Source of the DNA: Geotalea daltonii FRC-32
Lineage (GTDB): Bacteria > Desulfobacterota > Desulfuromonadia > Geobacterales > Geobacteraceae
Direction of reading: 5' to 3'
NCBI RefSeq assembly: GCF_000022265.1
Contig: NC_011979.1
Location: 2,700,001 to 2,732,000, forward strand
Length of the DNA: 32,000 nt
Shown here: positions 1,561-23,041 of the stretch, piece after piece
How the letters are laid out: every line of letters begins with the position of its first letter
How positions within the stretch are numbered: the first letter of the stretch is position 1
Translations under genes and position numbers: made by a program
The notes under the pieces: generated by a model
Database searches by the model: none
Told to the model about the DNA's origin: nothing
What the model saw: the letters and a program-made list of their open reading frames with translations, nothing else

Positions 1561-1725
1561 ATGGGTGATGGTGGAGTCAACGGGACGCAGGAACAATGGA
1601 ACGTGGAGTTGGAGCGTAAAATTCGTAATGCGCTGCAGTCAATTAAATTCGGGACCGTGACTCTTGTGATTCAGGACGGCAAGGTAATTCAAATCGACAA
1701 GAACGAAAAAATCCGGCTGACCTGA
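1561..1725 (+). CDS. YezD/DUF2292-family small protein (54 aa), not in the supplied ORF track
   Basis: Hand translation: MGDGGVNGTQEQWNVELERKIRNALQSIKFGTVTLVIQDGKVIQIDKNEKIRLT*. The core IKFGTVTLVIQDGKVIQIDKNEKIRL matches the DUF2292 signature as I remember it. GAGGAGG RBS at 1546-1552, 8 nt before the ATG. Confidence 0.7.
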   Translation: MGDGGVNGTQEQWNVELERKIRNALQSIKFGTVTLVIQDGKVIQIDKNEKIRLT

Positions 1726-1774
1726 AGCCGCCAGGGGATGGTATCGGCAATCAGCTGGCATCATGGAGGCTGCC

Positions 1775-2602
1775 ATGGCAGAACATATTATTGTTGTAGG
1801 CAAGGGGGGGGTAGGTAAATCCACCACTTCTGCTAATCTGGCTGCAGCTTTGGCGGAGGCCGGGCATCGGGTCGTCTTGATCGGTTATGATCCCCGTTGG
1901 AGCGCAACCGCCACCCTGCGTGGCACCTCGCCTCTGCTGCCGGTTCCTGAATGGCAGAACGGAGACGTGGTTCCCCATTATGCTGTCGGTTTCAAGGGAG
2001 CCCTCTGCATAGAAGCAGGGGAGCTTACCATTGAGGGGGAAACTTCCCGTAGTGCGGAACTCCTGTACCACCCGCTATTAGTACGGCATCGTCCCAATTT
2101 TATAGTTCATGATGTGGCATGGGAACCGGGGGCTTCCTTCTTGTTGCCGCCTGCTTCTGAAGGTGTGCCAAGGCTTCTGGTGGTCACATCGGGGGACATG
2201 ACGTCAATCAATGTCGTTAATGAACTCTTCAGTTGGTTGAATACTGTGGCATCAAGCAATTGCCGTTTTAGTGGGGTAGTGATCAATAATCTGAAGGGAC
2301 CTCTCTATGAATCGATCATTTCCGATTTTGTCTCCAGGACCGGCACTGTCGTTATGGCCAGTGTCCCCCATTCCGTAATGGTATCGGTGAGTGATTTTTA
2401 TAACCAGACTTTGATCGAGGCCGCTCCCTGGTCACATAATGCCTATGCCTACCGCAAATTGGCACGCCAGATCGAAGATTCTGCCGTGGTTCCCCGGCCG
2501 GTTTATCTCAACGGAGAAGAACTTGCAAATTGGGCAAGGAAGTGGGGAGAAATAATTTCAGAACTGGAGACAGGGGTAGTAAGGGACGGTTCAAGCATAT
2601 GA
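1775..2602 (+). CDS. Divergent NifH/BchL-family ATPase paralog lacking both [4Fe-4S] cysteine ligands
   Basis: P-loop GKGGVGKST is present. The family-specific C-terminus (ELANWARKWGEIISELETGVVR) is shared with the canonical paralog at 3923. Where that paralog has GVGCAGRG and DVVCGGF, this one has TIEGETSRS and AWEPGASF. I prefer the start at ATG 1775 (GGAGG at 1765-1769, 5-nt spacing) over ATG 1763. Confidence 0.8.
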   Translation: MAEHIIVVGKGGVGKSTTSANLAAALAEAGHRVVLIGYDPRWSATATLRGTSPLLPVPEWQNGDVVPHYAVGFKGALCIEAGELTIEGETSRSAELLYHPLLVRHRPNFIVHDVAWEPGASFLLPPASEGVPRLLVVTSGDMTSINVVNELFSWLNTVASSNCRFSGVVINNLKGPLYESIISDFVSRTGTVVMASVPHSVMVSVSDFYNQTLIEAAPWSHNAYAYRKLARQIEDSAVVPRPVYLNGEELANWARKWGEIISELETGVVRDGSSI

Positions 2603-2658
2603 CAGGTGACAGCTCATTGCATCAGATCCTGTGGTGGAATTGGGCAGCATAAAAAAGC

Positions 2659-2708
2659 TTGACAATAAAATCTTTTTCCGTTATTAATCTATCTAAAAGA
2701 TAGACTAA
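2659..2708 (+). promoter_or_regulatory. Sigma70-type promoter plus palindromic operator upstream of the NifB-like gene
   Basis: -35 TTGACA (2659-2664), 17-nt spacer, -10 TATTAA (2682-2687). Operator TTAATCTAT (2684-2692)-N7-ATAGACTAA (2700-2708) has the same 9-7-9 architecture as the site at 459-485. Confidence 0.6.
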
Positions 2709-2728
2709 TAAGTTTAATCAATTTCAAA

Positions 2729-2781
2729 GGCTCACTGGACAAACCGGAGGCCAAGGATATTTTCCTTGGCCTCTTTTTTTT
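2729..2781 (+). terminator. Leader hairpin module copy A: small hairpin plus intrinsic-terminator-like stem and T8, between promoter and start codon
   Basis: The small stem is CTGG-acaaa-CCGG (one G-U pair). The 11-bp stem is GAGGCCAAGGA (2747-2757) / TCCTTGGCCTC (2763-2773) with a 5-nt loop, then T8 (2774-2781). The leader contains no ATG, so it is not a leader-peptide attenuator. Confidence 0.55.
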
Positions 2782-2802
2782 CAGCAACGGAGGGGGATAC
2801 CC

Positions 2803-3678
2803 ATGGCGAGTACATGCTCGGGCAGGAACAACATTCAGGGTCATCCCTGTTTCGGCGGCAACAGACACAAAAATGGCCGGATTCATCTGGCTGTGGCACC
2901 TCGCTGCAACATACAGTGTGGTTATTGCACCCGCAGGCATGACTGCGTCAATGAGTCCCGCCCTGGCGTTACCAGCCGGATCCAGACGCCGCAGGAAGCT
3001 CTTGAGACCGTACGTGCCGTCATGAAAAACGACTTGAGCGATATTATCAAGGTGGTCGGTATAGCAGGCCCAGGGGACCCCCTGGCCAACGAAGAGACAT
3101 TCGAGACCTTTCGGCTGGTCGGGGAAGAGTTTCCTCAGCTGATCAAATGTCTGAGCACCAATGGGCTGCTTCTCCCGGAGTCATTGGATAGTCTTGCCGA
3201 ACTCGGCCTTGGCAGCCTTACGGTAACGATCAATGCCATAGATCCGGTGATCGCCGGACGGATTTACAAGCATGTCCTGTACCAGGGCAAACGATATAGC
3301 GGCAGAGAAGGAGGCGAGCTGATCATCTCCAGACAGTTTGCCGGTGTAGAAAGGGCGGTTGAACTGGGCCTGACCGTGAAGGTGAACAGTGTCCTGATTC
3401 CAGGCGTGAATGAGCAGCAGATCGGACTCATAGCAGAAAGGATCAAAAAATCAGGGGCATTCGTCATGAATGTCATGCCCCTTATACCCCAGGCGGACTT
3501 TGCCCACATTGTTCCACCTTCACCCGAGGAGCTTGAACTGGTATGCACCGCCAACGAAAAAATCATCGGCCAGTTCCGCCATTGTCGGCAATGCCGCGCA
3601 GATGCCATCGGGCTCATAGGGCAGGACAGTCAGGGCGCCGACAGCGGCTGTTCCATAAGCCAATTGGCCGTCGTCTGA
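2803..3678 (+). CDS. NifB-like radical SAM protein (SAM domain only, no fused NifX domain)
   Basis: 291 aa. Motifs: HPCF, APRCNIQCGYCTR (CxxxCxxC radical-SAM), ESRPGV, GIAGPGDPLAN, LSTNGLLLP, TVTINAIDP, KVNSVLIPGVN, HCRQCRADAIG. All are classic NifB blocks. GGAGGGGG RBS at 2790-2797. Confidence 0.9.
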   Translation: MASTCSGRNNIQGHPCFGGNRHKNGRIHLAVAPRCNIQCGYCTRRHDCVNESRPGVTSRIQTPQEALETVRAVMKNDLSDIIKVVGIAGPGDPLANEETFETFRLVGEEFPQLIKCLSTNGLLLPESLDSLAELGLGSLTVTINAIDPVIAGRIYKHVLYQGKRYSGREGGELIISRQFAGVERAVELGLTVKVNSVLIPGVNEQQIGLIAERIKKSGAFVMNVMPLIPQADFAHIVPPSPEELELVCTANEKIIGQFRHCRQCRADAIGLIGQDSQGADSGCSISQLAVV

Positions 3679-3713
3679 GAAAACATTTCTTCAACTGGTT
3701 GTAGAGGTGCAAT

Positions 3714-3893
3714 ATGACGCAAGTTCCTGTAATCATTAGAAAATGTTCGGATTCCCTGCCAGAGGGGGCACTGGACACGCTGGCCGAAATGGTAAAAGGG
3801 GTGCGCTATGGGTCCATCACCCTGGTGGTGCAGAACGGCAGGTTGGCACAGATAGACAAGACAGAGAAGTTTCGGTTGAGCAAGGCACAATAA
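3714..3893 (+). CDS. YezD/DUF2292-family small protein (59 aa), not in the supplied ORF track
   Basis: Hand translation: [59 protein letters not shown]. It has the same core as the 1561 ORF ([26 protein letters not shown]). Stop TAA at 3891-3893. Confidence 0.7.
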
Positions 3894-3922
3894 TTCATGG
3901 AAAGAGAAAAGGAGCAGAAACA

Positions 3923-4801
3923 ATGTCCCAGAAAAAAGTAAAAACCATTGCAATCTACGGTAAAGGAGGAATCGGCAAATCGACGACCACCTCAAACATC
4001 ACGGCAGCCCTGTCGACACTGGGTCTCAAGGTGATGCAGATCGGCTGCGACCCCAAGAGCGATTCCACCACAACCTTGAGGGGAGGGGGCTACATACCGA
4101 CCATCCTTGATACGCTCAGGGACAAGAAGTCGGTCAAATCCAACGAAATCATCTTCGATGGCTTCAATGGAATCTATTGCGTAGAAGCAGGCGGTCCAGC
4201 CCCTGGAGTAGGCTGTGCCGGCCGCGGCATCATCACTTCGGTGGAACTTCTCAAGCAGCTCAGAGTCTTCGACGAACTGGACCTGGACGTGGTGGTCTAT
4301 GACGTTCTGGGGGACGTCGTATGCGGCGGGTTTGCGGTACCGATCAGGGAAGGGATTGCCGATCATGTCTTTACCGTTTCTTCATCCGACTTCATGGCCA
4401 TCTATGCCGCCAACAACCTTTTCAAGGGGATCCAGAAATATTCCAATAACGGCGGCGCCCTCCTTGGCGGCGTTATCGCCAACTCCGTCAACACCGGCTA
4501 TGCCAAAGAGATCATAGACGATTTCGTCACCCAGACAAAAACCCAGGTGATCGAGTACGTGCCCCGATCGGTCACGGTCACCCAGAGCGAGCTGCAGGGC
4601 AAAACCACCATCGAAGCCTTCCCCGAGTCCGAGCAGGCAAAGGTTTACCGGGGCCTGGCCCAGAAGATCTACGATCACACCGAATCAAAGGTTCCGACAC
4701 CCCTGAACGACAAGGAACTCCATGAGTGGGCCTTCAAATGGGCCGATACCCTGCTTGCCATGGAGACCGGAGAAGTCCGCAGCAAAGCAGCGAATATTTA
4801 A
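3923..4801 (+). CDS. Canonical NifH-like Fe-protein (nitrogenase-like reductase component)
   Basis: Motifs: [39 protein letters not shown] (Cys97 equivalent), [15 protein letters not shown] (Cys132 equivalent). The true start is ATG 3923 (AAAAGGAG at 3907-3914). The 60-aa N-terminal extension in the ORF track (from 3743) overlaps the yezD-like ORF and is rejected. Confidence 0.9.
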
Positions 4802-4836
4802 ATTTATAACATCTCACATATCAGGAGGAATTTCAG

Positions 4837-5763
4837 ATGGGACGCATTTACAACAATTTAACTGACCTTATCGGCGGAACACCGCTACTTCATCTGCACC
4901 GGCTGGGCAAAGGGCTCGGCGCCGATATTATCGCAAAGCTTGAATCCTTCAACCCCGGCGGCAGCGTCAAAGACCGCATCGGCTTCTCCATGATCAAGGC
5001 CGCCGAAGAAAAAGGGCTGTTGAAAAAAGACTCGGTCATTATCGAGCCAACCAGCGGCAATACCGGCATAGCCCTGGCCTTTGTCGCCGCCGCCCGCGGT
5101 TATCGGCTGATCCTGACCATGCCCGACACCATGAGCATTGAAAGGCGGAACCTGCTCAGGGCCTACGGTGCGGAACTCGTATTGACACCAGGCGCCAAGG
5201 GAATGAAAGGAGCCATCGAGGCGGCAGATGAGTTGGCAGCCACTACTCCCAATTCATTCGTCCCACAGCAGTTCAAGAATCCGGCGAATCCCGCCATTCA
5301 CAGAGCCACCACAGCCGAAGAAATATGGGCTGATACCGACGGCAAGATCGACATCCTTGTTGGAGGCGTCGGTACCGGCGGCACCGTCACCGGTGTCGGC
5401 GAAGTCCTGAAGGAGCGCAAACCCGGCTTGCAGGTGATCGCAGTAGAACCATTCGATTCGCCGGTATTGTCCGGAGGAACCCCCGGTCCCCACAAAATCC
5501 AAGGTATCGGCGCCGGTTTTATCCCGGAGGTGCTCAATCAGTCAGTCGTCAACGAGGTCTACAAGGTCCGCAACGAAGAGGCATTCCTGACCGGAAGACG
5601 ACTTGCCCGGGAAGAGGGGCTTCTGGTGGGAATTTCCGGTGGTGCTGCAGCCTTCGCCGCTTTGCAGATTGCTGCCCGGCCGGAGAATGCCGGCAAAAAG
5701 ATCGTGGTGGTCCTCCCCGATACGGGCGAACGCTACCTTTCCACACCGCTTTTCGAAGAGTAG
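4837..5763 (+). CDS. cysK: Cysteine synthase A (O-acetylserine sulfhydrylase, PLP-dependent)
   Basis: 308 aa. Motifs: [20 protein letters not shown] (PLP lysine), [42 protein letters not shown] upstream. Confidence 0.95.
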
Positions 5764-5872: not shown

Positions 5873-7387
5873 ATGAGCGAAAAAATTGACCTCAGTACAA
5901 ATAGCTGCCCCAACAGGGAACAGAGGGCAAACGGCGTCAACATTTTTTACGGCAAGGCCACGGAGCTGGTGGCTGACGCCCGTGCCGGAAAACTGAAGCA
6001 TCAAGAGCGGGCGTTTCAGCAGACTTCCGGCTGTATCCTCAACTTCTACCTGACTGTACGCGTCATGACGATCCGCGACGCCGTCATGATCGTCCACGCC
6101 CCGGTTGGCTGTTCGTCTTCCGCACTGGGATACCGGGAGCTGTTCAAGGGGATTCGGAAAGGGCTCGGGGGAATGCCGGAAGATTTCGAGTTCCATTGGC
6201 TCACCACCAACCTGAACGAACGTGATGTGGTGTACGGTGCCGCCGACAAGCTGAAGGCCGCCATTCATGAGGCCCAGAATCGCTACAATCCGAAGGCCAT
6301 CTTCATCATGTCTTCATGCACCTCAGGCATTATCGGCGAGGACATTGACGGTGTAGTGGCCGACATTCAACCGGAGATCTCAGCAACCATCGTTCCTGTC
6401 CATTGCGAAGGAACAAAATCGCGCCTGGTTCAGACCGGATATGACGTATTCTGGCATGCGGTTCTCAAGTACCTGGTGAAGCCACCGAAGAAAAAGCAGC
6501 CTGATCTGGTCAATATCGCCAGCATGTTGTCTTACACCTGGCAGGACAGAATGGAGATCACCCGGTTGCTGGGCAAGGTGGGGCTTCGCGTCAACTTCAT
6601 CCCGGAATTCGCCACTGTCGAGCAGTTTGAACAGCTCTCCGAGGCGGCGGTAACGGCGCCCATGTGTCCTTCCTATACGGATTACCTGTCGCGCGGCCTT
6701 GAGCAGGAATACGGAGTCCCGTTCTTCCTTTATCCTTCGCCGATCGGTATCGCGCACACCGACGAATGGCTGCGGACAATCGCCAAATATACCGGCAAGG
6801 AAAAAGAGGTTGAGGCGCTTATCGCTGAAGAACACGCCACCTGGGTTCCACAGCTGGAAAATATTCAGGGTGAGTTCAAGAGCCTGGCCCCCGAAGGTGA
6901 CAAACTTGATGTGCTCGGCTCCTTGGGACAAGGGCGGCTTCTGACGCAAACACCATTTTTCAACGAGCTTGGCGTCAAGGCAACCGCTGCCATAGTGCAG
7001 GACTTCGATAATCTGGTCCTGGATGAAATGGATAAGATGATCGAGGAAACAGGTGATTTCGATGTGCTGATCAATACTTTCCAGGCGGCAGAGGTCGCCC
7101 ACATTGCCAAGAATCGGGCACCGGACATCGTGCTGAGTTGCCCGTTCCAGGGGAGCGCCTATAAAAGGGACAAGGGGATGACCAGGATACACGCTCTGCG
7201 TGGTGACGCCCGTGAATGGAGCACCCAGGCCGGTTACAAGGGGGCGGTGGCTGCGGGAAATTTCCTGCTTCAGTCCACAAAGAACAAGTCATTTCAGCAG
7301 ACCATGAAGGCCAATACGGAAGAAACTTATACCGACTGGTGGTTTAAGCGGCCAAACCCGGTCTACCTGAAAGAGGAGGGGGCATAG
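5873..7387 (+). CDS. NifD-like subunit of nitrogenase-like enzyme, copy 1
   Basis: Cys-containing blocks sit where NifD has its P-cluster ligands: SGCILN, HAPVGCSS, SSCTSGIIGEDIDG. Cofactor-ligand-like positions are also present: TAPMCPSY and TRIHALRGD. Start taken at ATG 5873 (MSEKIDL), not the upstream alternative start at 5828. Confidence 0.85.
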   Translation: MSEKIDLSTNSCPNREQRANGVNIFYGKATELVADARAGKLKHQERAFQQTSGCILNFYLTVRVMTIRDAVMIVHAPVGCSSSALGYRELFKGIRKGLGGMPEDFEFHWLTTNLNERDVVYGAADKLKAAIHEAQNRYNPKAIFIMSSCTSGIIGEDIDGVVADIQPEISATIVPVHCEGTKSRLVQTGYDVFWHAVLKYLVKPPKKKQPDLVNIASMLSYTWQDRMEITRLLGKVGLRVNFIPEFATVEQFEQLSEAAVTAPMCPSYTDYLSRGLEQEYGVPFFLYPSPIGIAHTDEWLRTIAKYTGKEKEVEALIAEEHATWVPQLENIQGEFKSLAPEGDKLDVLGSLGQGRLLTQTPFFNELGVKATAAIVQDFDNLVLDEMDKMIEETGDFDVLINTFQAAEVAHIAKNRAPDIVLSCPFQGSAYKRDKGMTRIHALRGDAREWSTQAGYKGAVAAGNFLLQSTKNKSFQQTMKANTEETYTDWWFKRPNPVYLKEEGA

Positions 7388-7389
7388 CA

Positions 7390-8779: not shown

Positions 8780-8837
8780 TGCTAACCAGAGATCTGGAGG
8801 CCGGTTATGCCTGATAAGGGCTACCGGCCTTTTTTTT
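8780..8837 (+). terminator. Hairpin module copy C: intrinsic terminator after the NifK-like gene
   Basis: TGCTAACCAGAGATCTGGAGGCC (small CCAG-agat-CTGG hairpin), then stem GGCCGGT (8799-8805) / ACCGGCC (8823-8829), then T8 (8830-8837). Confidence 0.7.
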
Positions 8838-11216: not shown

Positions 11217-11254
11217 CCCCTTCTGCATGCAATCTAAAAGAAGGAGAGTACGGT

Positions 11255-12967: not shown

Positions 12968-13024
12968 AAGAAAGCAACCCAGTGCACAAATGGAAATCGG
13001 ACCAACAAAAGAAGGAGATGCGAC

Positions 13025-13996
13025 ATGAAGATCGCAGATGTTGAAATGAAGACCCATCAGTTGAGGAAACCCGGTGCCCTTATCCACAGAATGGGGATTT
13101 CTCTGGTGATGCTGACAGTCGTCTCCATGCTTTTCGCCTGCTCAGGAAAAGGGGGAGAGAAGGTCAGTGCGTCGACGTGGAAAACTTATCAACTGCCCTT
13201 TAACCATGTGGTCTTCGATCTGAAGCAGACAGGAGAGAAGGATGGGTGGGCGGTTGGAGAGAGAGGGCTTATACTTCGGTTCGACGGCACGAAATGGGAG
13301 CAAGTCGAATCCCCGGTGGCTGTCCCCCTCTTTGCCATTGCCTTCCCTGAATCTGACCGCAGATGGGCAGTCGGGGCCGATGGGACGATTCTGGAAGGAA
13401 ATAGCGATGGTTGGAAGGAGGTTCAAAAGCCGGACAAGTGGCACCTCATGTCGGTTGCTTTCCCATCGCCGGCAGACGGATGGGCTGTCGGAGAGAGAGG
13501 TTCCATTGTTCACTATGACGGCAAGGAATGGAAAAAGGTTGAGTCACCAAAAAAAGTGGCCCTGAACCGAGTCGTATTCAACAACCCCAACGATGGATGG
13601 GCCGTGGGCAATCAGGGGGTGATCCTCCATTACGACGGCAAAGGATGGAAGGAGATTTCATCTTCCACTGACCGGACGCTGTACGGGATAGCATTCCGGA
13701 ACTCGAATGACGCCTGGGCGGTTGGAGAGAAGGGCACCATTCTTCATTATGACGGCAAGTCCTGGTCGAAAGCCGAAAGCCCGGTCGAACGAACCTTCCT
13801 CAATGTGGCCGTTTCCAATGGAAAGGATGCATATATCGTCGGGCGTGGCGGAGAACTGCTTTCCCTGCATGAAGGCAAGTGGACACAGGGCGCCGATTCC
13901 CTAACCAGAAAGACCCTGTATGCCATTGATATTCCGCCGGACGGGAAACCGTGGGTTGGGGCAACCACCCGCGATATCTTCAAAAAACAACTTTAA
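13025..13996 (+). CDS. Ycf48/BNR-like beta-propeller lipoprotein
   Basis: Lipobox MLFAC/SG. About 6-7 repeats of a ~47-aa unit (DGWAVGERGxILHYDGKxWxxVESP...), typical of photosystem-II-assembly-factor-like (Ycf48/Hcf136) propellers. Confidence 0.7.
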   Translation: MKIADVEMKTHQLRKPGALIHRMGISLVMLTVVSMLFACSGKGGEKVSASTWKTYQLPFNHVVFDLKQTGEKDGWAVGERGLILRFDGTKWEQVESPVAVPLFAIAFPESDRRWAVGADGTILEGNSDGWKEVQKPDKWHLMSVAFPSPADGWAVGERGSIVHYDGKEWKKVESPKKVALNRVVFNNPNDGWAVGNQGVILHYDGKGWKEISSSTDRTLYGIAFRNSNDAWAVGEKGTILHYDGKSWSKAESPVERTFLNVAVSNGKDAYIVGRGGELLSLHEGKWTQGADSLTRKTLYAIDIPPDGKPWVGATTRDIFKKQL

Positions 13997-14052
13997 GCTT
14001 TATCTGCTGAAATCATGCGGAAATTCATAAACCGTAGCGAAAGGAGAAAGAA

Positions 14053-15498
14053 ATGAAGAATCAGAAAATGAAGGGCGTGGTCGCGCTTGCCACCTTGGCT
14101 GCTATTGCAGCCACAGACCTATCGGTCGTGGCCCGGTTCGGTATCGCCAAGGAAAATGTTGATTGGGGTAAGGTAGCATGGACGCCGGCAAAATCTACTT
14201 CACCCTGGAAAGAGTGGAACTGGAACCCGAAGAAGGAAGGGCGGTCCTGGAAATATGTGGAGGAACTGTCGCAGGCAGAAAAGGATTACTGGCAGATCGA
14301 CGGGCGCTGGTCCCACGAGATCCCCAGGGACAAGGAGTATCCCAAATTGCCGGAGGAGAGATATCCGTTCAAGGCCCCATACAGTGGGGAGGAACTTAGC
14401 GCTCTTGGGGAAGCCGGGGGCGGGGGTACCGTTATGTGCGGCCTGCAGGCCCATAGTGGATACCACATTTCCCGGACCAAAGACCGGAACGGAGTTATCA
14501 GCAAATCAGACACGATCTGCAATACGATCAGGCACTACAAGACCTTTGCCGAACAACTCTACAAGTTCAAGCCTGGGCAGGAGACCGGCGCCTACCTCGT
14601 TGTCGTGGCCAATCCGCCCGAGTCCGCAGGCACCGTCTCGCTTTCAAAATTCTACAAGGATGGCCCCGGTGTTTCCAAGCTTGAAGACCGTTGGGCATAT
14701 CTGCCGTCGCTACGGCGTGTTCGCAGGATCTCCGGCGCCAGCGGCTCGGACTATATCCCCGGTTCGGTCGCTACCTATGATGACGTATTCCTTCGGGATT
14801 TCTGGAAATACGACTCGAAAATCATCGGTGTGGACATTCTCTATCAGGCCGTTAACAGCAAAAAGCCTTACGGACCCATTGCGGGGCCATATCGCGCCGA
14901 TGGCGGCATAGAGACCTATGTGGTTTTAAGCAAACCTGTAAAGAATGGGTACTATCTCAGTCAGTGGATCAGCTGGCATGAGAAAAAAACCGGTCATATC
15001 ATTCGTCAAGAACAATGGGACCGCAAGGGTAACTTTAAGAAGGTTTCGGAAAAAGGTCTTTCCGGGCAGGTCTTATACTTTAATAAACTCATCTACCCTT
15101 GGTCGGAAGGGTTCAAGGGCGGGCTGACCGAGAGCGGCGCCGAGCGACGGGCGATTTTGCACGGCGGAGGACCTGATCAGGTATGGGACGTGGAGCAGGA
15201 CGTGCAGACCTATACTATTCCCGACACTCCTGACAAAAAGATCTCCTATGAGAAGTTCGGCAACCTGGATGCCTATGCCGGCAAGGAGACATGGAAACAG
15301 CTGTTCCAGCCGCAAAGGATCGAGAATCCATTCGTGAAGCCGGTACCTGTGGTGAAATTCGAGGCAACGGATTTCCCTCCCACCCCTCCTCTCTATCGAG
15401 ATAAGTTTTCAAAGTTCCGCAAGATCTCGCTTCCTGCCGAGATCCTGCAAAAGATCAAGAAGGATGAACAGAGCAAGCGGGGACTTTTTAAATCTTAA
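14053..15498 (+). CDS. DUF1329-like periplasmic/outer-membrane-associated protein (LolA-like fold family)
   Basis: Signal peptide present. Block WAYLPSLRRVRRISGASGSDYIPGSVATYDDVF matches the DUF1329 core I recall (..PalRRvRR...tyDD..). AAAGGAGAAAG RBS upstream. Confidence 0.65.
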   Translation: MKNQKMKGVVALATLAAIAATDLSVVARFGIAKENVDWGKVAWTPAKSTSPWKEWNWNPKKEGRSWKYVEELSQAEKDYWQIDGRWSHEIPRDKEYPKLPEERYPFKAPYSGEELSALGEAGGGGTVMCGLQAHSGYHISRTKDRNGVISKSDTICNTIRHYKTFAEQLYKFKPGQETGAYLVVVANPPESAGTVSLSKFYKDGPGVSKLEDRWAYLPSLRRVRRISGASGSDYIPGSVATYDDVFLRDFWKYDSKIIGVDILYQAVNSKKPYGPIAGPYRADGGIETYVVLSKPVKNGYYLSQWISWHEKKTGHIIRQEQWDRKGNFKKVSEKGLSGQVLYFNKLIYPWSEGFKGGLTESGAERRAILHGGGPDQVWDVEQDVQTYTIPDTPDKKISYEKFGNLDAYAGKETWKQLFQPQRIENPFVKPVPVVKFEATDFPPTPPLYRDKFSKFRKISLPAEILQKIKKDEQSKRGLFKS

Positions 15499-15513: not shown

Positions 15514-15549
15514 GAAGACGGGCCATTGGGACTCCACTGGCCCGTCTTC
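15514..15549 (+). terminator. Strong hairpin after the envelope operon (no U-tract)
   Basis: GAAGACGGGCCA (15514-15525) / TGGCCCGTCTTC (15538-15549), a 12-bp perfect stem followed by CTTGGGGGG rather than a T-run. Confidence 0.4.
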
Positions 15550-15567: not shown

Positions 15568-17283
15568 ATGCATGATAATTTGAGTGAGCTGCCCATAACG
15601 GATGATACACCCATAAACCTTAAGGAAAACACTTGCCCGACCCGTGAACAACGGTTGTCGGTCGCCATAAACGCCTATTACGGTACCATGAGCGATCTGG
15701 TCAAGGGGACTCGTGAAAAGAGCCTCGTTCAGCCGGACCGCTGTTTTGAACAGTCTGGGAACTGCCTTCTGGCTCTTAATGCCCAACGGCTCATCAGCAT
15801 TCGCGATTCCGTGCTCCTGTTTCACTCACCCATAGGGTGTGCAGCAGGCCAGCACAGCAGTCACGAACTCTTTCAGCATATTCCCATCGAGCAGGGGCGA
15901 CCTGCCGATCTGGGTTTTTTCCATGCGGTCAGCACCAATCTGACTGACAGCGATGTGGTTTTCGGCGGCGGCGAGAAGCTGGTCGCCGCCCTCAAGGAAG
16001 CTGACCGGCGCTATTCGCCCCGGGCCATTTTTGTCGTCACCTCCTGTGCCTCCGGTATCATCGGCGACGACCTGGAAGGGGCTGTCAATGAGGCCCAGCC
16101 GCACGTTAAGGCAAAGATCGTCCCCTGTCACACCGAAGGATTCCGTTCCCGTGTAACGCAGACCGGCTACGATGCCTTCTGGCACGGGGTTCTCAAGTAT
16201 CTGGTGCGAAAGGACCTGCCGAGAGAGAAGGATCTGGTGAACGTTACCAACATGTTCTCCTACACCTGGATGGACAAGATCGAAATAAACCGGCTCCTCA
16301 CCAAGCTGGGGCTCAGGGTCAATTTCATACCCGAATTCGCCTCGGTGGAAGATCTGGAGCGGATGGGGGCTGCAGCGGTGACCGCGCCGATCTGCCCGAC
16401 ATTCGCCGACTATCTGATGCGGGGGCTGGATGAGCACTTCGGCGTTCCCTATTTCAACGACGTAATCCCCTTCGGCATCAAAAAGACCGACGAGTGGCTC
16501 CGCAGGATCGCCAGCTATACGGGCAAGGAAAAGGAGGTGGAGGAGCTCATCAAGGAGGAGCACGCCACCTACATCCCGAAGGTGGACAAAATCCGGCAGG
16601 GGTTGGAGGACATCCGCAGGCGGATGGTGGCAAAAGGGACCAAGAAGGAGGGGGAGAAGCTGACCGCCATCGGTGCGGTCGGCCAGGGCCGCGTCATCGG
16701 GCATGCCGTATTCCTGGAAGAGCTGGGTTTGGAAGTCGCAGCTGCTTGCGCCATTGATTACGATTCCCTCATCGCCGATTCCTTTGATTCCCTGGTCAAG
16801 GAAGTGGGTGATTTCATCGTTCTCGTCTCAACTTTCCAGGCTGCTGACTACGCTAATCTCTTTGCCAGGCTCAAGCCGGACCTTTCCCTCCAGGCCCCCT
16901 TCAAGGGGGGTGTAATCAAGACCGCCCACACCATTGGAACCATCCATTGGCTCAGGGGCCACAATCATCCTTCACAGGTTCAAGCCGGTTATGCCGGCGC
17001 CGTCGGATACGGGGATATGGTCCTGCGGAGTTTCCAGAACACTGCACTGACCAAGCTGCTTGCCGACTTCGATGACTCCCCCTACAAGGATTGGTGGTAC
17101 AAAGCCGATCCGCTGCATTATGTGAAGGGAAGGGACGAGATCTTCAAGTCCAACCCTCTAACAATACCGGATGATCCGGATCACGGTCACGAACATGATG
17201 ATCACCGTCATCACGACCACGGCCACACCCACAGCCATGGTCACGACCACGGTCAGGATCATGCTCACGGCCACAAGCATTAA
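15568..17283 (+). CDS. NifD-like subunit, copy 2, with C-terminal His-rich tail
   Basis: Paralog of the 5873 gene; long blocks are identical by eye (LGLRVNFIPEF, AAVTAP.CP, TDEWLR.IA.YTGKEKEVE). Ligand-type blocks: SGNCLLAL, HSPIGCAAG, TSCASGIIGDDLEG, TAPICPTF, TIHWLRGH. The tail is HGHEHDDHRHHDHGHTHSHGHDHGQDHAHGHKH. Confidence 0.85.
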   Translation: MHDNLSELPITDDTPINLKENTCPTREQRLSVAINAYYGTMSDLVKGTREKSLVQPDRCFEQSGNCLLALNAQRLISIRDSVLLFHSPIGCAAGQHSSHELFQHIPIEQGRPADLGFFHAVSTNLTDSDVVFGGGEKLVAALKEADRRYSPRAIFVVTSCASGIIGDDLEGAVNEAQPHVKAKIVPCHTEGFRSRVTQTGYDAFWHGVLKYLVRKDLPREKDLVNVTNMFSYTWMDKIEINRLLTKLGLRVNFIPEFASVEDLERMGAAAVTAPICPTFADYLMRGLDEHFGVPYFNDVIPFGIKKTDEWLRRIASYTGKEKEVEELIKEEHATYIPKVDKIRQGLEDIRRRMVAKGTKKEGEKLTAIGAVGQGRVIGHAVFLEELGLEVAAACAIDYDSLIADSFDSLVKEVGDFIVLVSTFQAADYANLFARLKPDLSLQAPFKGGVIKTAHTIGTIHWLRGHNHPSQVQAGYAGAVGYGDMVLRSFQNTALTKLLADFDDSPYKDWWYKADPLHYVKGRDEIFKSNPLTIPDDPDHGHEHDDHRHHDHGHTHSHGHDHGQDHAHGHKH

Positions 17284-17309
17284 AAGAATATAAAGGAGAT
17301 GCAAATTAC

Positions 17310-18683
17310 ATGACTGCGACAAATGTACTGAAATTTACCGATGAAGACGAGCGCATTGCCGCTCTTGATCCCAAGGACCGTCCCTTGCAGGAGACACCTC
17401 GCCATACGTGCGCCTTGGGCGGCGCGTTTGTGGCAGCTACCGCCGTGTCAGGGGTGATGCCGATCCTCCATTCGGGAGGAGGATGCGGCTGGTCCAATTT
17501 CTTCGGCTTTATCGGCGCCAGCGGCGGCGGGCAGATCGGCGACGGCGGTGCATTGACTACCCCCTGTTCGACCCTGCTGGAAAAGCATGTGGTCTTCGGC
17601 GGTGAGGAAAGGCTGCGCGACCAGATCGCTTCGACCATGGAACTTATGAACGGGGACCTGTTCGTCACGGTGTCGGGTTGTATCCCGGCGCTTATCGGTG
17701 ACGATGTTGAAGGGGTCGTCTCCGAATTCAGGAAACCGGAATACCCTCCCATCATTAACGTCAAATCATCGGGATTCAACGGGACCTCCTACGATGGCTA
17801 CGACCTGTTCCTGGATGCGGTTATCGACCAGTATCTGGAAGAGCGACCGGTCCGGAAAGGCTTGGTAAACATCCTCGGTATCCAGCCCTGCCAGCACATA
17901 TTCTGGAAGGGAGACCTGGATCTTTTCAAGACCAACCTGGATGCCATCGGTCTGGAGACCAACCAGATCTTCGGCGGCAGATACGGTGTTGAAGGGCTGA
18001 AGAATATTCCGGCCGCCCAGTTGAACATTGTCCTCAGTCCCTGGCAGGGTTTGAAAGCCGCGGAAAAACTCAAGGAGAAATACGGCACCCCCTATATCGT
18101 CTATCCTGGGTTGCCCATGGGCCCCAAGGAAATGACCCGCTTTCTGCGTACGGTGGCCGAACATCTGGATGTGGAACAGGAGCGCCTGGATAAATGGATC
18201 AGGAAGCAGACAGAGATTGCCTACGACGACTTCAATCTGATTGCCACGGCTCTATATACCGGGTTTTGCAACGTTCACTTCGCGGTCGTCGCGGAATCGA
18301 ATATGGCCATCGGGTTGGTCAGGTACCTGACCAATGAATGCGGCCTGCTTCCCAGTGTGGTGGTCGTGACCGACAATCCCCCTGCAGAAGTGCGTGACCT
18401 CATCACCGACAGGCTCACCAATGGACTCGAAGGCATAATCGTTCCCGACGTCTACTTCGAGAACGATACCTACCTGATTCACAAGAGACTGACGAAATAC
18501 ACTTTCATGCTCCTTTTCGCCAGCTCCATGGAAAAGTACGCTGCCAGCAAGTACATGGCCGGCCATCACACGATTTCTTTTCCCGCCTTTGACCGGGTTA
18601 TCCTCAAGCGCACCTATGCCGGGTTCGGGGGAGGAAATATCCTCCTGGAAGACCTGTTCAGCAAATTCGCCAGGCCGTTCTAA
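17310..18683 (+). CDS. NifK-like subunit, copy 2
   Basis: Blocks HTCALGGAF, HSGGGCG and VSGCIPALIGDD parallel copy 1. AAAGGAGA RBS upstream. Confidence 0.85.
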   Translation: MTATNVLKFTDEDERIAALDPKDRPLQETPRHTCALGGAFVAATAVSGVMPILHSGGGCGWSNFFGFIGASGGGQIGDGGALTTPCSTLLEKHVVFGGEERLRDQIASTMELMNGDLFVTVSGCIPALIGDDVEGVVSEFRKPEYPPIINVKSSGFNGTSYDGYDLFLDAVIDQYLEERPVRKGLVNILGIQPCQHIFWKGDLDLFKTNLDAIGLETNQIFGGRYGVEGLKNIPAAQLNIVLSPWQGLKAAEKLKEKYGTPYIVYPGLPMGPKEMTRFLRTVAEHLDVEQERLDKWIRKQTEIAYDDFNLIATALYTGFCNVHFAVVAESNMAIGLVRYLTNECGLLPSVVVVTDNPPAEVRDLITDRLTNGLEGIIVPDVYFENDTYLIHKRLTKYTFMLLFASSMEKYAASKYMAGHHTISFPAFDRVILKRTYAGFGGGNILLEDLFSKFARPF

Positions 18684-18728
18684 GGTGCCCGGCATCAAAT
18701 CATGGAAAAAACCTATGGAGAGCCGATC

Positions 18729-19112
18729 ATGAGCTGGGTACGGGTTGCCGTCGCCTCGACGGACGGAATAGCAATCGACCAGTCACTACAGGAGGTCTCT
18801 TCCTTCAGCATTTATGATGTAGCTGTGGAGGGCCCCCGGTTCGTGGAAACACGCAAGGCAGCCGGGGCCTCTGCTTTGCCCGGCCCTGGCGGGGAGCCAA
18901 CCGGCCTGTCCATGGATGAATTTCTGGATATCATCTCCGATTGCTCACTCCTGGTTGTAAGGTCTTTGGGAGTTGAAGCCGGGGGGAAGATACAGATCGG
19001 GTGGCTGACCGTCTATGAGGCAGATATGCAGGTTGAAAAGGCATTGAAGAGGTTTTCCAGCAGTCCCCTGATCAAAAACTTGTTTGGGAATAAAGCAGAC
19101 CCAACCGATTGA
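18729..19112 (+). CDS. NifX/NafY/NifB-C-terminal-like cofactor-binding domain protein
   Basis: VRVAVASTDGIAIDQSLQEVSSFSIYDV..., then a central DC (IISDCSLLVV), then GVEAGGKI. This is the dinitrogenase Fe-Mo-cofactor-binding domain pattern. ATG 18729 has GGAGAG 6 nt upstream; the alternative start is ATG 18702. Confidence 0.7.
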   Translation: MSWVRVAVASTDGIAIDQSLQEVSSFSIYDVAVEGPRFVETRKAAGASALPGPGGEPTGLSMDEFLDIISDCSLLVVRSLGVEAGGKIQIGWLTVYEADMQVEKALKRFSSSPLIKNLFGNKADPTD

Positions 19113-23040: not shown

Positions 23041-23041
23041 T

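What the first reader, a model, noticed from the sequence alone, without database searches (positions are those of the whole stretch)
1561..19112. Nitrogenase-like (Nfl/Mar-type) island inside a sulfur-acquisition regulon, with two DK cores
Seen: the island holds a NifB-like radical-SAM gene (2803-3678), a canonical NifH-like gene (3923-4801), two NifD-like/NifK-like pairs (5873-8715 and 15568-18683) and a NifX-like gene (18729-19112). All four D/K proteins keep three Cys in the sequence blocks where NifD and NifK carry their P-cluster ligands. In D1/D2 these are SGC/GNC, HxPxGC and S/TSCxSGIIGxD; in K1/K2 they are xxCALGGA, HSGxGCG and SGCxPxLIGDD. Both D-like proteins also keep a Cys (TAPMCPSY / TAPICPTF) and a His (TRIHALRGD / TIHWLRGH) where NifD has the FeMo-co ligands Cys275 and His442. 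There are no nifE/N/V/Q/S/U-type genes. The neighbours are instead an Rrf2 regulator, a sulfate-binding protein, CysK and an SsuA-like binding protein.
Established: the nitrogenase-like methylthio-alkane reductase MarBHDK of Rhodospirillum rubrum cleaves C-S bonds of volatile organosulfur compounds under sulfate limitation and has the same B-H-D-K gene order.
Inference: module 1 (B-yezD-H-cysK-D-K) is a Mar-like organosulfur reductase. Module 2 (D2-K2-NifX, with no B or canonical H of its own) has no characterised counterpart that I know of. It may be a second catalytic core sharing the same reductase and cofactor machinery, with a different substrate.
Basis: partly seen in the sequence, partly recalled or inferred. 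Interest (0 to 1): 0.85.

Follow-up and report, generated by a model that had tools for sequence, protein, structure and literature searches.

The report
Two-core nitrogenase-like sulfur-scavenging island
This stretch of the Geotalea (Geobacter) daltonii chromosome encodes one nitrogenase-type electron donor and cofactor synthase serving two different nitrogenase-like catalytic cores, set among sulfur-uptake genes; both cores belong to an untested lineage separate from the known methylthio-alkane reductase, so their substrates are unknown.

Summary
Window 1561-19112 holds a NifB-like radical-SAM gene, a MarH-like NifH, two NifD/NifK-like pairs and a NifX-like gene. They sit among Rrf2, a sulfate-binding protein, CysK and an SsuA-like protein. 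There are no nifENVQSU genes. All six P-cluster cysteines and the cofactor cysteine align with solved MarDK.

D1 and D2 are about 33% identical to R. rubrum MarD. They lack Mar's Loop-I Arg-His ligand and its HWS/F/H pocket. They form a separate clade: D1+D2 97% and Mar core 98% in NJ bootstrap. Instead they have an invariant His, 22 residues after the conserved KPD strand; NifD His442 is the 23rd. D1 belongs to a large clade found in methanogens, Clostridia and Geobacteraceae. D2 belongs to a small sister clade.

- D2K2-NifX always follows an AmeABCD-type hydrophobe RND cassette (4 of 4 loci).
- D2 has a conserved His-rich disordered tail.
- The upstream NifH paralogue lacks both [4Fe-4S] cysteines, as does its whole family.

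Arrays of several DK pairs sharing one H/B/X are already published for Heliophilum and R. palustris.

Verdict: a new variant of a known kind, most likely anaerobic organosulfur reductases with unknown substrates.

The parts
11..445 (+). Rrf2-family regulator. It is cut by the window start and carries a Cys-rich C-X8-C-X2-C-X5-C segment. Candidate regulator of the island.
   Evidence: PF02082 E=2e-34. The best specific NCBIfam model is CymR, below its cut-off. An Rrf2 gene also sits next to the homologous genes in L009 and L010.
505..1512 (+). Periplasmic sulfate/thiosulfate-binding protein (Sbp/CysP type).
   Evidence: NF008022 572.6 bits and TIGR00971 521 bits.
1561..1725 (+). YezD/DUF2292 small protein, copy 1.
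   Evidence: PF10055 E=1.5e-19. DUF2292 precedes NifH-type or NifB-type genes in L003, L005, L009 and L010.
1775..2602 (+). NifH paralogue without [4Fe-4S] ligands. The Walker A motif GKGGVGKST is kept. The Cys97 loop is deleted and Cys132 is replaced.
   Evidence: PF00142 E=4e-29. It is 33% identical to the canonical H. All 66 family members (P0320-P0385, mostly Geobacteraceae) lack both Cys.
2746..2774 (+). Terminator-like hairpin (12 bp stem followed by T8). It separates yezD-H' from the B operon.
   Evidence: (I16).
2803..3678 (+). NifB/MarB-like radical-SAM cofactor (L-cluster) synthase without a NifX domain.
   Evidence: TIGR01290 321 bits over model positions 7-281 of 441. The CNIQCGYC motif is visible in the sequence.
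3714..3893 (+). YezD/DUF2292 small protein, copy 2.
   Evidence: PF10055 E=1.5e-16.
3923..4801 (+). NflH, a MarH-type ATP-dependent reductase with both cluster Cys and the P-loop.
   Evidence: TIGR01287 409 bits. 476 bits to MarH 9fmg_D. The motifs GVGCAGRG and DVVCGGF are present.
4837..5763 (+). CysK (O-acetylserine sulfhydrylase), embedded between H and D1.
   Evidence: TIGR01139 471 bits, above the cut-off of 351.
5873..7387 (+). D1, the alpha-type subunit of catalytic core 1. It belongs to a widespread clade found in methanogens, Clostridia and Geobacteraceae.
   Evidence: PF00148. It is 62-73% identical to about 100 clusters. Ligands C54/C80/C149, C265 and H440.
7390..8715 (+). K1, the beta-type subunit of core 1, with Cys C21/C46/C111.
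   Evidence: PF00148. It is 49% identical to K2. Cysteines assigned from the K1-K2 alignment and the K2-MarK alignment.
8816..8832 (+). Terminator-like hairpin followed by a T run after K1. Probable end of the module-1 operon.
8886..11216 (+). AmeD-like inner-membrane RND transporter of the HAE3/MMPL family.
   Evidence: PF03176. TIGR00921 HAE3 192 bits.
11255..12967 (+). AmeA-like outer-membrane protein (DUF1302-like), with a signal peptide and a low-complexity linker.
   Evidence: It has no Pfam hit itself. UniRef calls it 'Alginate export domain-containing'. The positional orthologue in L005 hits PF06980 DUF1302.
13025..13996 (+). AmeC-like periplasmic BNR/Ycf48-type beta-propeller.
   Evidence: PF14870 E=5e-24. 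Repeats with a 117-nt period, matching propeller blades (D2 family).
14053..15498 (+). AmeB-like DUF1329/LolA-like periplasmic protein.
   Evidence: PF17131 and PF07044.
15514..15549 (+). Strong intercistronic stem-loop between the transporter cassette and D2, with no U tract.
   Evidence: -28.2 kcal/mol, z = -3.96, 0 of 200 shuffles fold as well.
15568..17283 (+). D2, the alpha-type subunit of core 2, from a small sister clade. Nucleotides 17158-17280 encode a disordered His/Asp-rich tail.
   Evidence: PF00148. Ligands C66/C91/C160, C276 and H460. The tail is present in 13 of 13 D2a clusters. Tail pLDDT is below 50. Fold closest to MarD.
17310..18683 (+). K2, the beta-type subunit of core 2, with Cys C34/C59/C124.
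   Evidence: 270 bits to MarK 9d9u_C, with the three P-cluster Cys aligned.
18729..19112 (+). NifX/NafY-like cofactor carrier.
   Evidence: PF02579 E=1e-11. The same gene follows D2K2 in L001, L003 and L005.
19849..20889 (+). SsuA/NMT1-family substrate-binding lipoprotein. The ORF opens at 19741; the likely start is MPGFMNK, followed by a lipobox.
   Evidence: PF09084. TIGR01728, weak. NMT1 proteins recur in related loci.
20932..21243 (+). CMD/AhpD-like small protein.
   Evidence: PF02627. It recurs downstream of D2K2X in L001 and L003.
21293..22069 (+). ArsM-like SAM methyltransferase, probably a selenoprotein with an in-frame TGA at 21917.
   Evidence: NF041537, NF047649 and NF041536 at 222-235 bits. 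Read-through translation.

Best explanation
The island (Geotalea daltonii FRC-32; protein accessions ACM20809-ACM20821, locus tags around Geob_2463/2465) is a sulfur-scavenging unit built around a shared nitrogenase-like 'chassis'. The chassis is one MarH-type ATP-driven Fe protein, one NifB/MarB-type radical-SAM enzyme that makes an [Fe8S9C] L-type cluster, and a NifX-like carrier. It serves two paralogous catalytic heterotetramers, D1K1 and D2K2.

Each core should hold a P-cluster at the D/K interface (six Cys). Each should also hold a buried L-type cluster, anchored by one Cys and by an invariant His. That His sits in the NifD-type loop, not in the Mar-type loop.

Both cores belong to an uncharacterised Group-IV lineage, distinct from Mar (IV-C) and with a different active-site lining. 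I infer that they reductively release sulfur from organosulfur compounds other than, or additional to, the Mar substrates. The released sulfide or thiol would feed the CysK encoded inside the operon.

D2K2-NifX is co-transcribed with an AmeABCD-type hydrophobe RND system. I infer that it handles a hydrophobic substrate or a hydrocarbon product that must cross the cell envelope.

Shown here: gene content, ligand conservation, clade placement and conserved synteny.
Inferred: the cofactor types, sharing of H/B/X between the cores, sulfur-limitation control (probably through the adjacent Rrf2 regulator), C-S cleavage chemistry and the role of the transporter.
For: - Domain assignments.
- H is Mar-type.
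- All P-cluster Cys and the cofactor Cys align with solved MarDK and are 99-100% conserved.
- An invariant His lies 22 residues after the conserved KPD strand. NifD His442 is the 23rd residue and MarD His429 the 6th. In the AlphaFold model this His directly follows a beta-strand.
- The D2 model matches MarD best, with TM 0.89.
- There is only one canonical H and one NifB-like gene for two DK pairs in the window. Relatives show the same economy: H-DK-DK-B-X in L004, and B-H-Ame-DK-X-DK in L005.
- Sulfur context here: Sbp, CysK, SsuA-like and Rrf2. Sulfur context in relatives: Cys_Met_Meta_PP, PALP and NMT1 ABC transporters.
- Published precedent: Mar, Mar2 and NflDK3 are all induced by sulfur limitation, and an Nfl-linked NifX is essential in R. 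palustris. Group IV genes in general associate with sulfur genes.
- The Ame cassette lies immediately upstream of D2K2X in 4 of 4 D2a loci, although the upstream neighbours differ.
- AmeABCD is a hydrocarbon/hydrophobe efflux system.
Against: - There is no expression or activity data for this clade.
- D1 and D2 lack the Mar pocket residues, so C-S cleavage is argued by analogy only.
- The His-to-NifD-loop assignment rests on spacing and a predicted structure, not on a solved one.
- The link between the Ame cassette and the His tail is confounded by phylogeny, because all D2a loci may come from Geobacteraceae.
- Terminator-like hairpins show the modules are separate transcription units, so co-regulation is not demonstrated.
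- Nearby ArsM-like selenoprotein, CusBA and CbiMQO genes could point to metal, metalloid or selenium chemistry instead.
Confidence: 0.55

Rival explanations
1. D1K1 is a true methylthio-alkane reductase isozyme. It would have the same substrates as R. rubrum/R. palustris Mar (DMS, ethyl methyl sulfide, methylthioethanol) and yield methanethiol plus hydrocarbon. D2K2 would be a specialised second Mar, as Mar2 is in R. palustris.
For: The B-H-D-K logic is the same, H is Mar-type, the fold is closest to MarD, the cluster ligands are the same apart from the His, and the setting is sulfur assimilation. There is a precedent for two Mar isozymes with split substrate ranges.
Against: D1 and D2 are 33% identical to MarD, whereas Mar1, Mar2 and NflDK3 share 52-65% with each other. 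They fall outside the Mar clade (97-98% NJ support). Residues H194, W195, S196, F199 and H375, which are conserved between Mar and Mar2, are replaced by L/V, V/T, Q, Y and D. The Loop-I Arg-His is absent. The operon's sulfur-fixing enzyme is CysK rather than an O-acetylhomoserine sulfhydrylase.
Confidence: 0.15
2. D2K2-NifX is a NifEN-NifX-like scaffold/maturase that matures or modifies the cofactor, possibly adding a metal delivered by the His-rich tail. D1K1, or another core elsewhere, would be the only catalyst.
For: GenBank names the proteins 'VnfE/VnfN-related'. NifX lies directly after K2, as in nifENX. The His-rich tail suggests metal handling. Among curated models NifE scores about as well as NifD for D2.
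Against: K2 keeps all three P-cluster Cys. NifN contributes only one Cys to a [4Fe-4S] cluster (established NifEN structure, 3PDI; from my own knowledge). D2 keeps the invariant His, whereas NifE is reported to lack one at the His442 position (own knowledge, not checked here). The NifE model scores 134 bits against a cut-off of 505. D2K2X occurs without any D1-type pair in L003 and L005. It is coupled to a transporter, not to biosynthetic genes.
Confidence: 0.08
3. The cores act on organo-selenium, organo-arsenic or other organometal(loid) compounds (C-Se, C-As or C-metal cleavage) rather than on organosulfur compounds.
For: An ArsM-like selenoprotein and an AhpD/CMD protein lie downstream here, and in L001. 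CusBA-type metal efflux lies downstream in 3 of 4 D2a loci. D2 has a His-rich tail. The cluster-less NifH sits behind a corrinoid S/Se-methyltransferase set in L010. The literature links Mar-like genes to such clusters.
Against: The genes most tightly embedded are sulfur-assimilation genes: Sbp, CysK, and MetY-like genes in relatives. There are no ars, mer or selenium-specific genes inside the nfl operons. The metal-efflux synteny may be inherited among close relatives and is absent from L005.
Confidence: 0.08
4. One core is an alternative dinitrogenase of the Nfa type (Group IV-A).
For: It has full P-cluster ligands and a His at the NifD-like position. The set is NifB, NifH and NifX without NifEN, as in Endomicrobium.
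Against: The NifD pocket residues Gln191 and His195 are not kept at their aligned positions (ungapped comparison of the sequences with the NifD motif recalled from memory). The nifD/anfD/vnfD models score far below their cut-offs. There are no PII, nifA or nifV genes. The context is sulfur, not nitrogen.
Confidence: 0.03
5. The cores are tetrapyrrole or other cofactor-biosynthetic reductases, like CfbCD or DPOR.
For: URO-D family genes and a CbiMQO transporter occur in or near related loci.
Against: CfbD and BchNB lack P-cluster ligand sets and NifB dependence. Here all six Cys, the cofactor Cys/His pair and a NifB-like gene are present. The URO-D genes in L010 belong to a corrinoid methyltransferase set that also includes RACo.
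Confidence: 0.03

Closest known systems
Methylthio-alkane reductase MarBHDK of Rhodospirillum rubrum (Group IV-C; PDB 9fmg, 9d9u)
   Same: The component set is the same: NifB-like, NifH-like, D and K. H is very similar (476 bits). The six P-cluster Cys and the Cys270 equivalent are conserved. It is the best structural match (TM 0.89). The genomic context is sulfur assimilation.
   Different: D identity is only about 33% and the clade is separate. The His ligand is not in Mar's Loop I (the Arg428-His429 motif is absent). The pocket residues H194, W195, S196, F199 and H375 are replaced. CysK is in the operon rather than a methanethiol-to-methionine route. An Rrf2 regulator is the neighbour, not the LysR-type SalR. 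There are two cores, an Ame transporter and a His-rich tail.
R. palustris Mar1, Mar2 and NflDK3 (bioRxiv 10.64898/2026.08.20.746119)
   Same: One genome carries several Mar-like DK pairs among sulfur genes. One pair (NflDK3) has no H or B of its own. A NifX homologue is involved. Function is proposed to be split by substrate.
   Different: Those pairs are 52-65% identical to each other and keep the Mar His429. The pairs here are a different lineage, lie in one contiguous island and are split by a transporter cassette.
Heliophilum fasciatum NflDK1-5 cluster (PMC9147875)
   Same: Multiple clustered DK pairs are served by single nifB-, nifH- and nifX-like genes.
   Different: The organism is a Firmicute and those pairs were assigned to Nfa-like, Mar-like and unknown clades. 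No outer-membrane transporter, His-rich tail or cluster-less NifH was reported.
Mo-nitrogenase NifDK
   Same: The alpha2beta2-type D/K pairing, the P-cluster ligand set, the Cys275 equivalent, and a His at almost the same spacing from the KPD strand as His442.
   Different: Identity is about 20%. There is no Gln191, His195 or Val70 pocket, and no homocitrate or NifEN machinery. All nitrogenase HMMs score far below their cut-offs.
AmeABCD tetrapartite HAE3 RND system of Castellaniella defragrans (PMC6394551)
   Same: The four protein types are the same: a DUF1302-type outer-membrane protein, a DUF1329/LolA-like protein, a Ycf48/BNR propeller and an HAE3 RND pump. It too is embedded in a pathway that handles hydrophobic compounds.
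   Different: The gene order here is D-A-C-B. The cassette is linked to a nitrogenase-like enzyme instead of monoterpene catabolism. The direction of transport and the substrate are unknown.

Membership tests
[quoted passage not shown] | A gene set of NifB-like, NifH-like, D and K | tested here: met
   H scores 476 bits to MarH.
[quoted passage not shown] | Six P-cluster cysteines (MarD 66/91/158, MarK 32/56/121) and the cofactor ligand Cys270 | tested here: met
   Alignments to 9fmg/9d9u and to 120 relatives.
[quoted passage not shown] | His429 (with Arg428) on the MarD-specific Loop I, ligating Fe8 | tested here: not met
   D1 has SCPFQG and D2 has QAPFKG at that position. The R-H-x-G motif is present in the core and in most of the extended Mar-clade representatives and absent from the D1/D2 clades.
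[quoted passage not shown] | Active-site lining H194/W195/S196/F199/H375, conserved in Mar, Mar1 and Mar2 | tested here: not met
   Replaced by L/V, V/T, Q, Y and an invariant D.
[quoted passage not shown] | Phylogenetic placement inside the MarD clade | tested here: not met
   In the NJ tree of 50%-identity representatives, D1+D2+P0050 has 97% support and the Mar core 98%, and the two are separate. This is NJ only and the references are unnamed.
[quoted passage not shown] | Reduces DMS, EMS and methylthioethanol; induced below about 100 uM sulfate | not testable with these tools
   Needs culture and enzyme assays.
Group IV nitrogenase-like (NFL) enzymes in general | PF00148 D/K pair plus a NifH-type reductase, falling outside the Nif, Vnf, Anf and NifEN families | tested here: met
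   All nitrogenase and NifEN equivalog models score far below their cut-offs, for example nifD 139 against 654. None of 10 sampled neighbours among the 150 closest representatives is a bona fide NifD or NifE.
Nitrogenase NifDK/VnfDK/AnfDK | Curated equivalog score, the Gln191/His195 pocket, and the nifEN/nifV machinery | tested here: not met
   HMM scores. Pocket residues by manual ungapped comparison of the sequences with the NifD motif, which I recalled from memory. No such genes are in the window.
Nitrogenase NifDK/VnfDK/AnfDK | A His ligand at the His442 (Loop II) position | tested here: inconclusive
   The spacing from the KPD strand is 22 residues against 23, and the His follows a beta-strand in the model. 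No coordinates or solved structure were available for confirmation.
NifEN cofactor scaffold | NifE/NifN equivalog score, and a NifN-type subunit contributing a single Cys to a [4Fe-4S] cluster | tested here: not met
   nifE 134 against 505 and nifN 28-50 against 327. K1 and K2 keep three Cys.
Isethionate reductase IsrBHDK (Group IV-F) | D/K that diverge at the P-cluster Cys positions, and a BciD-like rather than NifB-like radical-SAM partner | tested here: not met
   All Cys are present, and the partner is NifB-like at 321 bits.
AmeABCD-type tetrapartite HAE3 RND transporter | Co-located HAE3 RND pump, DUF1302 outer-membrane protein, DUF1329 protein and Ycf48/BNR propeller | tested here: met
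   DUF1302 is seen only through the L005 positional orthologue. Family description. Transport itself was not tested.

The most novel reading that the evidence does not exclude
D2K2 would be a new kind of nitrogenase-like reductase, defined by a NifD-position His ligand, a conserved His-rich metal-binding tail, and obligate genomic coupling to an Ame-type hydrophobe transporter. It would anaerobically desulfurise hydrophobic organosulfur compounds such as long-chain or aryl thioethers, or thiophenic compounds, and export the hydrocarbon product. Alternatively, it would carry a heterometal-modified L-type cofactor loaded through its tail. The cluster-less NifH paralogue would then be a dedicated, redox-inactive maturation or insertion ATPase, a natural counterpart of the apo-NifH activity known from nitrogenase assembly.
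Probability: 0.15. Interest if true: 0.85.

Novelty: new variant of a known kind. Interest (0 to 1): 0.6.

Why it matters
Only four Group-IV nitrogenase-like functions are known: Nfa, CfbCD, Mar and Isr. The 2026 review names the lack of functional clues for the remaining clades as the field's bottleneck.

This locus defines a large untested lineage by clear sequence signatures: QTGYD..WH, C/A-P-F-x-G and IHxLRG. The D1 branch of the lineage is common in methanogens, Methanoperedenaceae, Clostridia and Geobacteraceae. The lineage appears to combine Mar-like architecture with a nitrogenase-like His anchor. That bears on the published open question of how the ancestral [Fe8S9C] cluster was ligated.

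It also gives concrete handles on substrate class. CysK sits inside one operon. A hydrophobe transporter and a His-rich tail accompany the other core. If these enzymes cleave C-S bonds of new compound classes, they would add an anaerobic route for turning over organosulfur compounds and for releasing hydrocarbons (methane, ethylene or larger) in sediments and aquifers where Geobacteraceae and methanogens dominate.

Tried and rejected
- Literature search for these genes or this organism together with 'nitrogenase-like' found nothing.
- I could not map the clade onto the published IV-D/IV-E labels. The papers held give no member lists.
- Rfam at gathering thresholds found no riboswitch or other RNA in the window.
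- A repeat search for a shared operator between the modules found only coding-sequence similarity between the paralogues.
- The promoter scan was at background level: 14 sites against 13.2 expected.
- The genome-contig scan with D2 alone returned only 4 loci, so the taxonomic range of D2a rests mainly on metagenome contigs.
- Cluster look-ups of the sister-clade representatives gave almost no organism names.
- I looked for a remnant of the third (P0177-type) DK pair after NifX and found none.
- The SECIS test downstream of the in-frame TGA was not significant.
- The structure tools give no coordinates, so the Cys-His geometry could not be measured.
- Rejected as a bona fide nitrogenase or NifEN.
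- Rejected as Isr-type.
- Rejected the idea that the cluster-less NifH is a one-off pseudogene, because a conserved family of 66 clusters shares the same losses.

Full report
**Source and layout.**
The window is from the Geotalea (formerly Geobacter) daltonii FRC-32 chromosome. D1, K1, D2, K2, H, B and X are identical to ACM20813, 20814, 20819, 20820, 20811, 20809 and 20821, and the two unnamed proteins between the pairs are Geob_2463 and Geob_2465. No paper in the searchable library mentions these genes. All genes of interest are on the + strand. In order they are:
- Rrf2 regulator (11-445, cut by the window start)
- sulfate-binding protein (505-1512)
- YezD/DUF2292 (1561-1725)
- a NifH paralogue (1775-2602)
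- NifB-like (2803-3678)
- a second YezD (3714-3893)
- NifH-like (3923-4801)
- CysK (4837-5763)
- D1 (5873-7387) and K1 (7390-8715)
- MMPL/HAE3 RND pump (8886-11216)
- a 570-aa outer-membrane protein (11255-12967)
- BNR/Ycf48 propeller (13025-13996)
- DUF1329/LolA-like protein (14053-15498)
- D2 (15568-17283) and K2 (17310-18683)
- NifX-like (18729-19112)
- SsuA-like lipoprotein, a CMD protein and an ArsM-like methyltransferase
- CbiMQO and a CusBA-type pump

**Checking the observation.**
The domain E-values (1e-67 to 1e-102) exclude chance. I aligned D1 and D2 to solved R. rubrum MarD, and K2 to MarK, K1 following from its alignment to K2 (PDB 9fmg/9d9u). The published ligand list comes from PMC12552129.
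- The three P-cluster cysteines of the D subunit are D1 C54/C80/C149 and D2 C66/C91/C160.
- Those of the K subunit are K1 C21/C46/C111 and K2 C34/C59/C124.
- The cofactor cysteine is D1 C265 and D2 C276.

In a MAFFT alignment of 120 relatives these D-subunit positions are 99-100% conserved. No nifE, N, V, Q, S or U gene is present.

**Not Mar orthologues.**
Both D proteins hit MarD best in the PDB (E about 1e-70). However, identity over trimmed columns is only 33%, while D1 and D2 share 46% with each other. For scale, R. palustris Mar1, Mar2 and NflDK3 are 52-65% identical to each other.

A full HMMER search of 1.84 billion 50%-identity representatives found 194 relatives at E below 1e-30. None of ten sampled across the tree reaches a NifD or NifE cut-off. 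In NJ trees of the full-length representatives plus transcribed MarD:
- the D1 clade and the D2 clade each have 100% bootstrap support;
- D1+D2+P0050 has 97%;
- adding P0171/P0172 gives 96%;
- the Mar core has 98%, and it is separate from the D1/D2 group.

The sequence signatures agree with the tree.
- The core Mar-clade representatives and most of the extended set carry R-H-x-G directly after the 'KPD' beta-strand. This is Loop I, holding the Fe8 ligand His429 and Arg428. The D1/D2 group has (C/A)-P-F-x-G at that position.
- MarD H194, W195, S196, F199 and H375 are conserved in Mar, Mar1 and Mar2. Here they are replaced by L/V, V/T, an invariant Q, an invariant Y and an invariant D.

**Where the His sits.**
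I verified the A. vinelandii NifD C-terminal sequence against the PDB. His442 is the 23rd residue after Asp419 of the KPD strand. The invariant His of D1 and D2 is the 22nd residue after the same Asp. MarD His429 is the 6th.

The AlphaFold model of D2 (pLDDT 85, pTM 0.85) puts this His immediately after a beta-strand (455-458) that follows the KPD strand (439-442). From my own knowledge of the NifD structure, this matches the topology around its Loop II. It is not supported by a solved structure.

This is notable for two reasons. The 2026 review states that most Group IV sequences lack the nitrogenase His. The Mar structure paper could not infer the ancestral His position.

Overall the D2 model is nearest to MarD (TM 0.89, rmsd 2.9 A) and then to NifD (about 0.75).

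**The two clades.**
The D1 type is widespread. About 100 clusters are 62-73% identical to D1. They come from Methanobrevibacter, Methanobacterium, Methanosarcina, Methanothrix, Methanoperedenaceae, Syntrophobotulus, Clostridia and Geobacteraceae.

The D2 type is rare and splits in two:
- D2a (at least 71% identical to D2; 68% for one fragment; 13 clusters) always carries a His/Asp-rich C-terminal tail of variable sequence.
- D2b (60-64% identical, including Methanoperedenaceae) has no tail.

The tail is predicted to be disordered. A scan of GTDB species genomes with D2 found D2a only in G. toluenoxydans and one Geobacteraceae MAG.

**Synteny.**
Arrays of several DK pairs are the rule in this family.
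- L004 (Methanoperedenaceae): H-D2b-K-D-K-B-X.
- L016: H-D2b-K-D-K-H-D-K.
- L007 (Methanobacterium): an NMT1 ABC transporter followed by three DK pairs.
- L006: three pairs.
- L005: yezD-B-H-[Ame cassette]-D2-K2-X-D-K-CysK-like-MetY-like-ABC.
- L001: D-like pairs on both sides of the same Ame-D2-K2-X block.

The pair that follows D2K2X in L001, L004 and L005 belongs to a third clade (P0177 type) with no His in the loop region. It is absent here and has left no remnant.

The four-gene MMPL/DUF1302/BNR/DUF1329 cassette lies immediately upstream of D2 in all four D2a loci, although the genes upstream of the cassette differ. It is absent from the three D2b loci. This cassette matches the AmeABCD tetrapartite HAE3 RND system. 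AmeABCD was shown to protect Castellaniella defragrans against monoterpene hydrocarbons, and its homologues show co-fitness in other bacteria.

**Transcription units.**
- A 12-bp stem followed by T8 at 2746-2774 separates yezD-H' from B-yezD-H-cysK-D1-K1.
- A hairpin followed by a T run at 8816-8832 follows K1.
- A very stable stem-loop without a U tract (15514-15549; -28.2 kcal/mol, z = -3.96) lies between the cassette and D2.

The two modules are therefore probably separate operons. Co-regulation is plausible because an Rrf2 gene is adjacent here and in L009 and L010, but it has not been shown.

**The second NifH.**
The paralogue at 1775-2602 keeps the Walker A motif. It lacks both [4Fe-4S] cysteines and has a six-residue deletion at the Cys97 loop. 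All 66 family members share these losses. They come from Geotalea, Geomonas, Geomesophilobacter and metagenomes.

This is therefore a conserved, redox-inactive NifH-like ATPase. It sits next to Rrf2, YezD and the canonical H, and once behind a corrinoid methyltransferase set. From my own knowledge, apo-NifH supports FeMo-co synthesis and apo-dinitrogenase maturation. By that analogy a maturation or insertion role is the best guess, but it is pure inference.

**Mechanistic reading.**
I consider a shared chassis most likely. H delivers electrons with ATP hydrolysis. B builds an L-type cluster, and X carries it. Two paralogous cores use P-cluster-to-L-cluster electron flow to release sulfur reductively from organosulfur compounds. 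CysK then captures the product.

The different pocket residues, and the D1-specific Cys (C423, 85% conserved in the 120-sequence D1/D2 alignment and Ala in D2) at the position of MarD Arg428, argue that the substrates differ from those of Mar and differ between the two cores. The conserved Ame coupling suggests that D2K2 deals with a hydrophobic substrate or product.

Published work supplies the precedent. Mar cleaves C-S bonds. In R. palustris all three Nfl loci are induced by sulfur limitation, Mar1 and Mar2 split the substrate range, and a NifX homologue is essential. What is missing here is any expression or activity data. My confidence in this reading is about 0.55.

**Rival readings.**
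- A true Mar isozyme: 0.15. The pocket residues and the clade placement argue against it.
- A NifEN-like scaffold role for D2K2-X: 0.08. The full three-Cys K subunit, the retained His, and the occurrence of D2K2X without D1 argue against it.
- Selenium, arsenic or metal organometallic chemistry: 0.08. The ArsM-like selenoprotein, CusBA and the His tail suggest it, but these are peripheral genes.
- Nfa-type nitrogen fixation: 0.03.
- Tetrapyrrole chemistry: 0.03.

**Novelty.**
The following are already published: nitrogenase-like enzymes in sulfur scavenging, multi-DK arrays sharing H/B/X, and involvement of NifX. The new points are:
- these cores belong to a well-supported, uncharacterised lineage with a nitrogenase-position His and its own pocket signature;
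- the D2a subclade combines a His-rich tail with an Ame-type transporter;
- Geobacteraceae carry a dedicated cluster-less NifH paralogue.

I therefore rate it a new variant of a known kind, with interest 0.6.

**Limits.**
- The trees are NJ on unnamed representatives.
- MarD was transcribed from HMMER alignment output (residues 2-498).
- The published IV-D/IV-E labels could not be mapped onto these clades.
- No coordinates were available to measure ligand geometry.

Noticed in passing
window 21293-22069: The ArsM-like SAM methyltransferase ORF stops at a TGA (21917-21919). Reading through gives ...LDAWSA-U-IGGAIPG... and continues to a TAG at 22067. The best NCBIfam hits are ArsM-type selenoprotein families (222-235 bits). 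It is probably a selenocysteine protein of 258 aa. No significant SECIS-like hairpin was found downstream.
   Followed up: partly
window 1775-2602; P0320-P0385; L009, L010: A conserved family of NifH paralogues that lack both [4Fe-4S] cysteines and carry a six-residue deletion at the Cys97 loop. Members come mostly from Geobacteraceae. They sit beside Rrf2, YezD and the canonical NifH-like gene, and once behind a corrinoid methyltransferase/RACo set.
   Followed up: partly
window 17158-17280 (D2 residues 531-571): A His/Asp-rich disordered C-terminal tail (DHGHEHDDHRHHDHGHTHSHGHDHGQDHAHGHKH). A tail of this composition, with drifting sequence, is present in all 13 D2a relatives and absent from D2b and D1.
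   Followed up: partly
window 8886-15498: An AmeABCD-type tetrapartite HAE3 RND cassette (RND pump, DUF1302-like outer-membrane protein, BNR/Ycf48 propeller, DUF1329). It is inserted between the two DK pairs and is always directly upstream of His-tailed D2 in relatives.
   Followed up: yes
window 15514-15549: A very stable intercistronic stem-loop (-28.2 kcal/mol, z = -3.96, no U tract) just upstream of the D2 ribosome-binding site. It may be an mRNA processing or stability element, or an attenuator.
   Followed up: partly
window 11360-11491: A 66-nt tandem duplication (76% identical) encoding a Thr/Ala/Glu-rich linker near the N-terminus of the DUF1302-like outer-membrane protein.
   Followed up: no
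window 19113-19848 and 22070-23132: Two long stretches (about 0.74 and 1.06 kb) without credible ORFs or Rfam matches. The ORFs called there (19180-19647, 22044-22406) have no family hits. An 18-nt inverted repeat, 94% complementary, lies at 19659-19676 / 19787-19804.
   Followed up: no
L001 14054-16812; L005 13554-16243; L004 13014-15766: Relatives carry a third DK pair directly after D2K2(-NifX). Its D subunit belongs to the P0177-type clade and has no His at all in the loop region. G. daltonii lacks this pair and shows no remnant of it.
   Followed up: yes
window 1561-1725 and 3714-3893: Two YezD/DUF2292 small ORFs, each just upstream of a NifH-type gene. DUF2292 also precedes NifB- or NifH-like genes in L003, L005, L009 and L010, which suggests a conserved but unknown role in these systems.
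   Followed up: partly
window 23133-30519: CbiM(-PDGLE)/CbiQ/CbiO Ni/Co uptake genes, followed by a CusB/CzcB-CusA/CzcA heavy-metal efflux pair. CMD plus CusBA also follow D2K2X in L001 and L003 but not in L005. No cobalamin riboswitch was detected upstream of cbiM.
   Followed up: partly
D1 residue C423 (window about 7139-7141): D1 and most D1-clade members have a Cys here (85% of the 120-sequence D1/D2 alignment). It falls at the position of MarD Arg428, next to Mar's His429 ligand site. D2 and the D2-clade members inspected have Ala there. It may be a second-sphere residue or an alternative cluster ligand that distinguishes the two cores.
   Followed up: no
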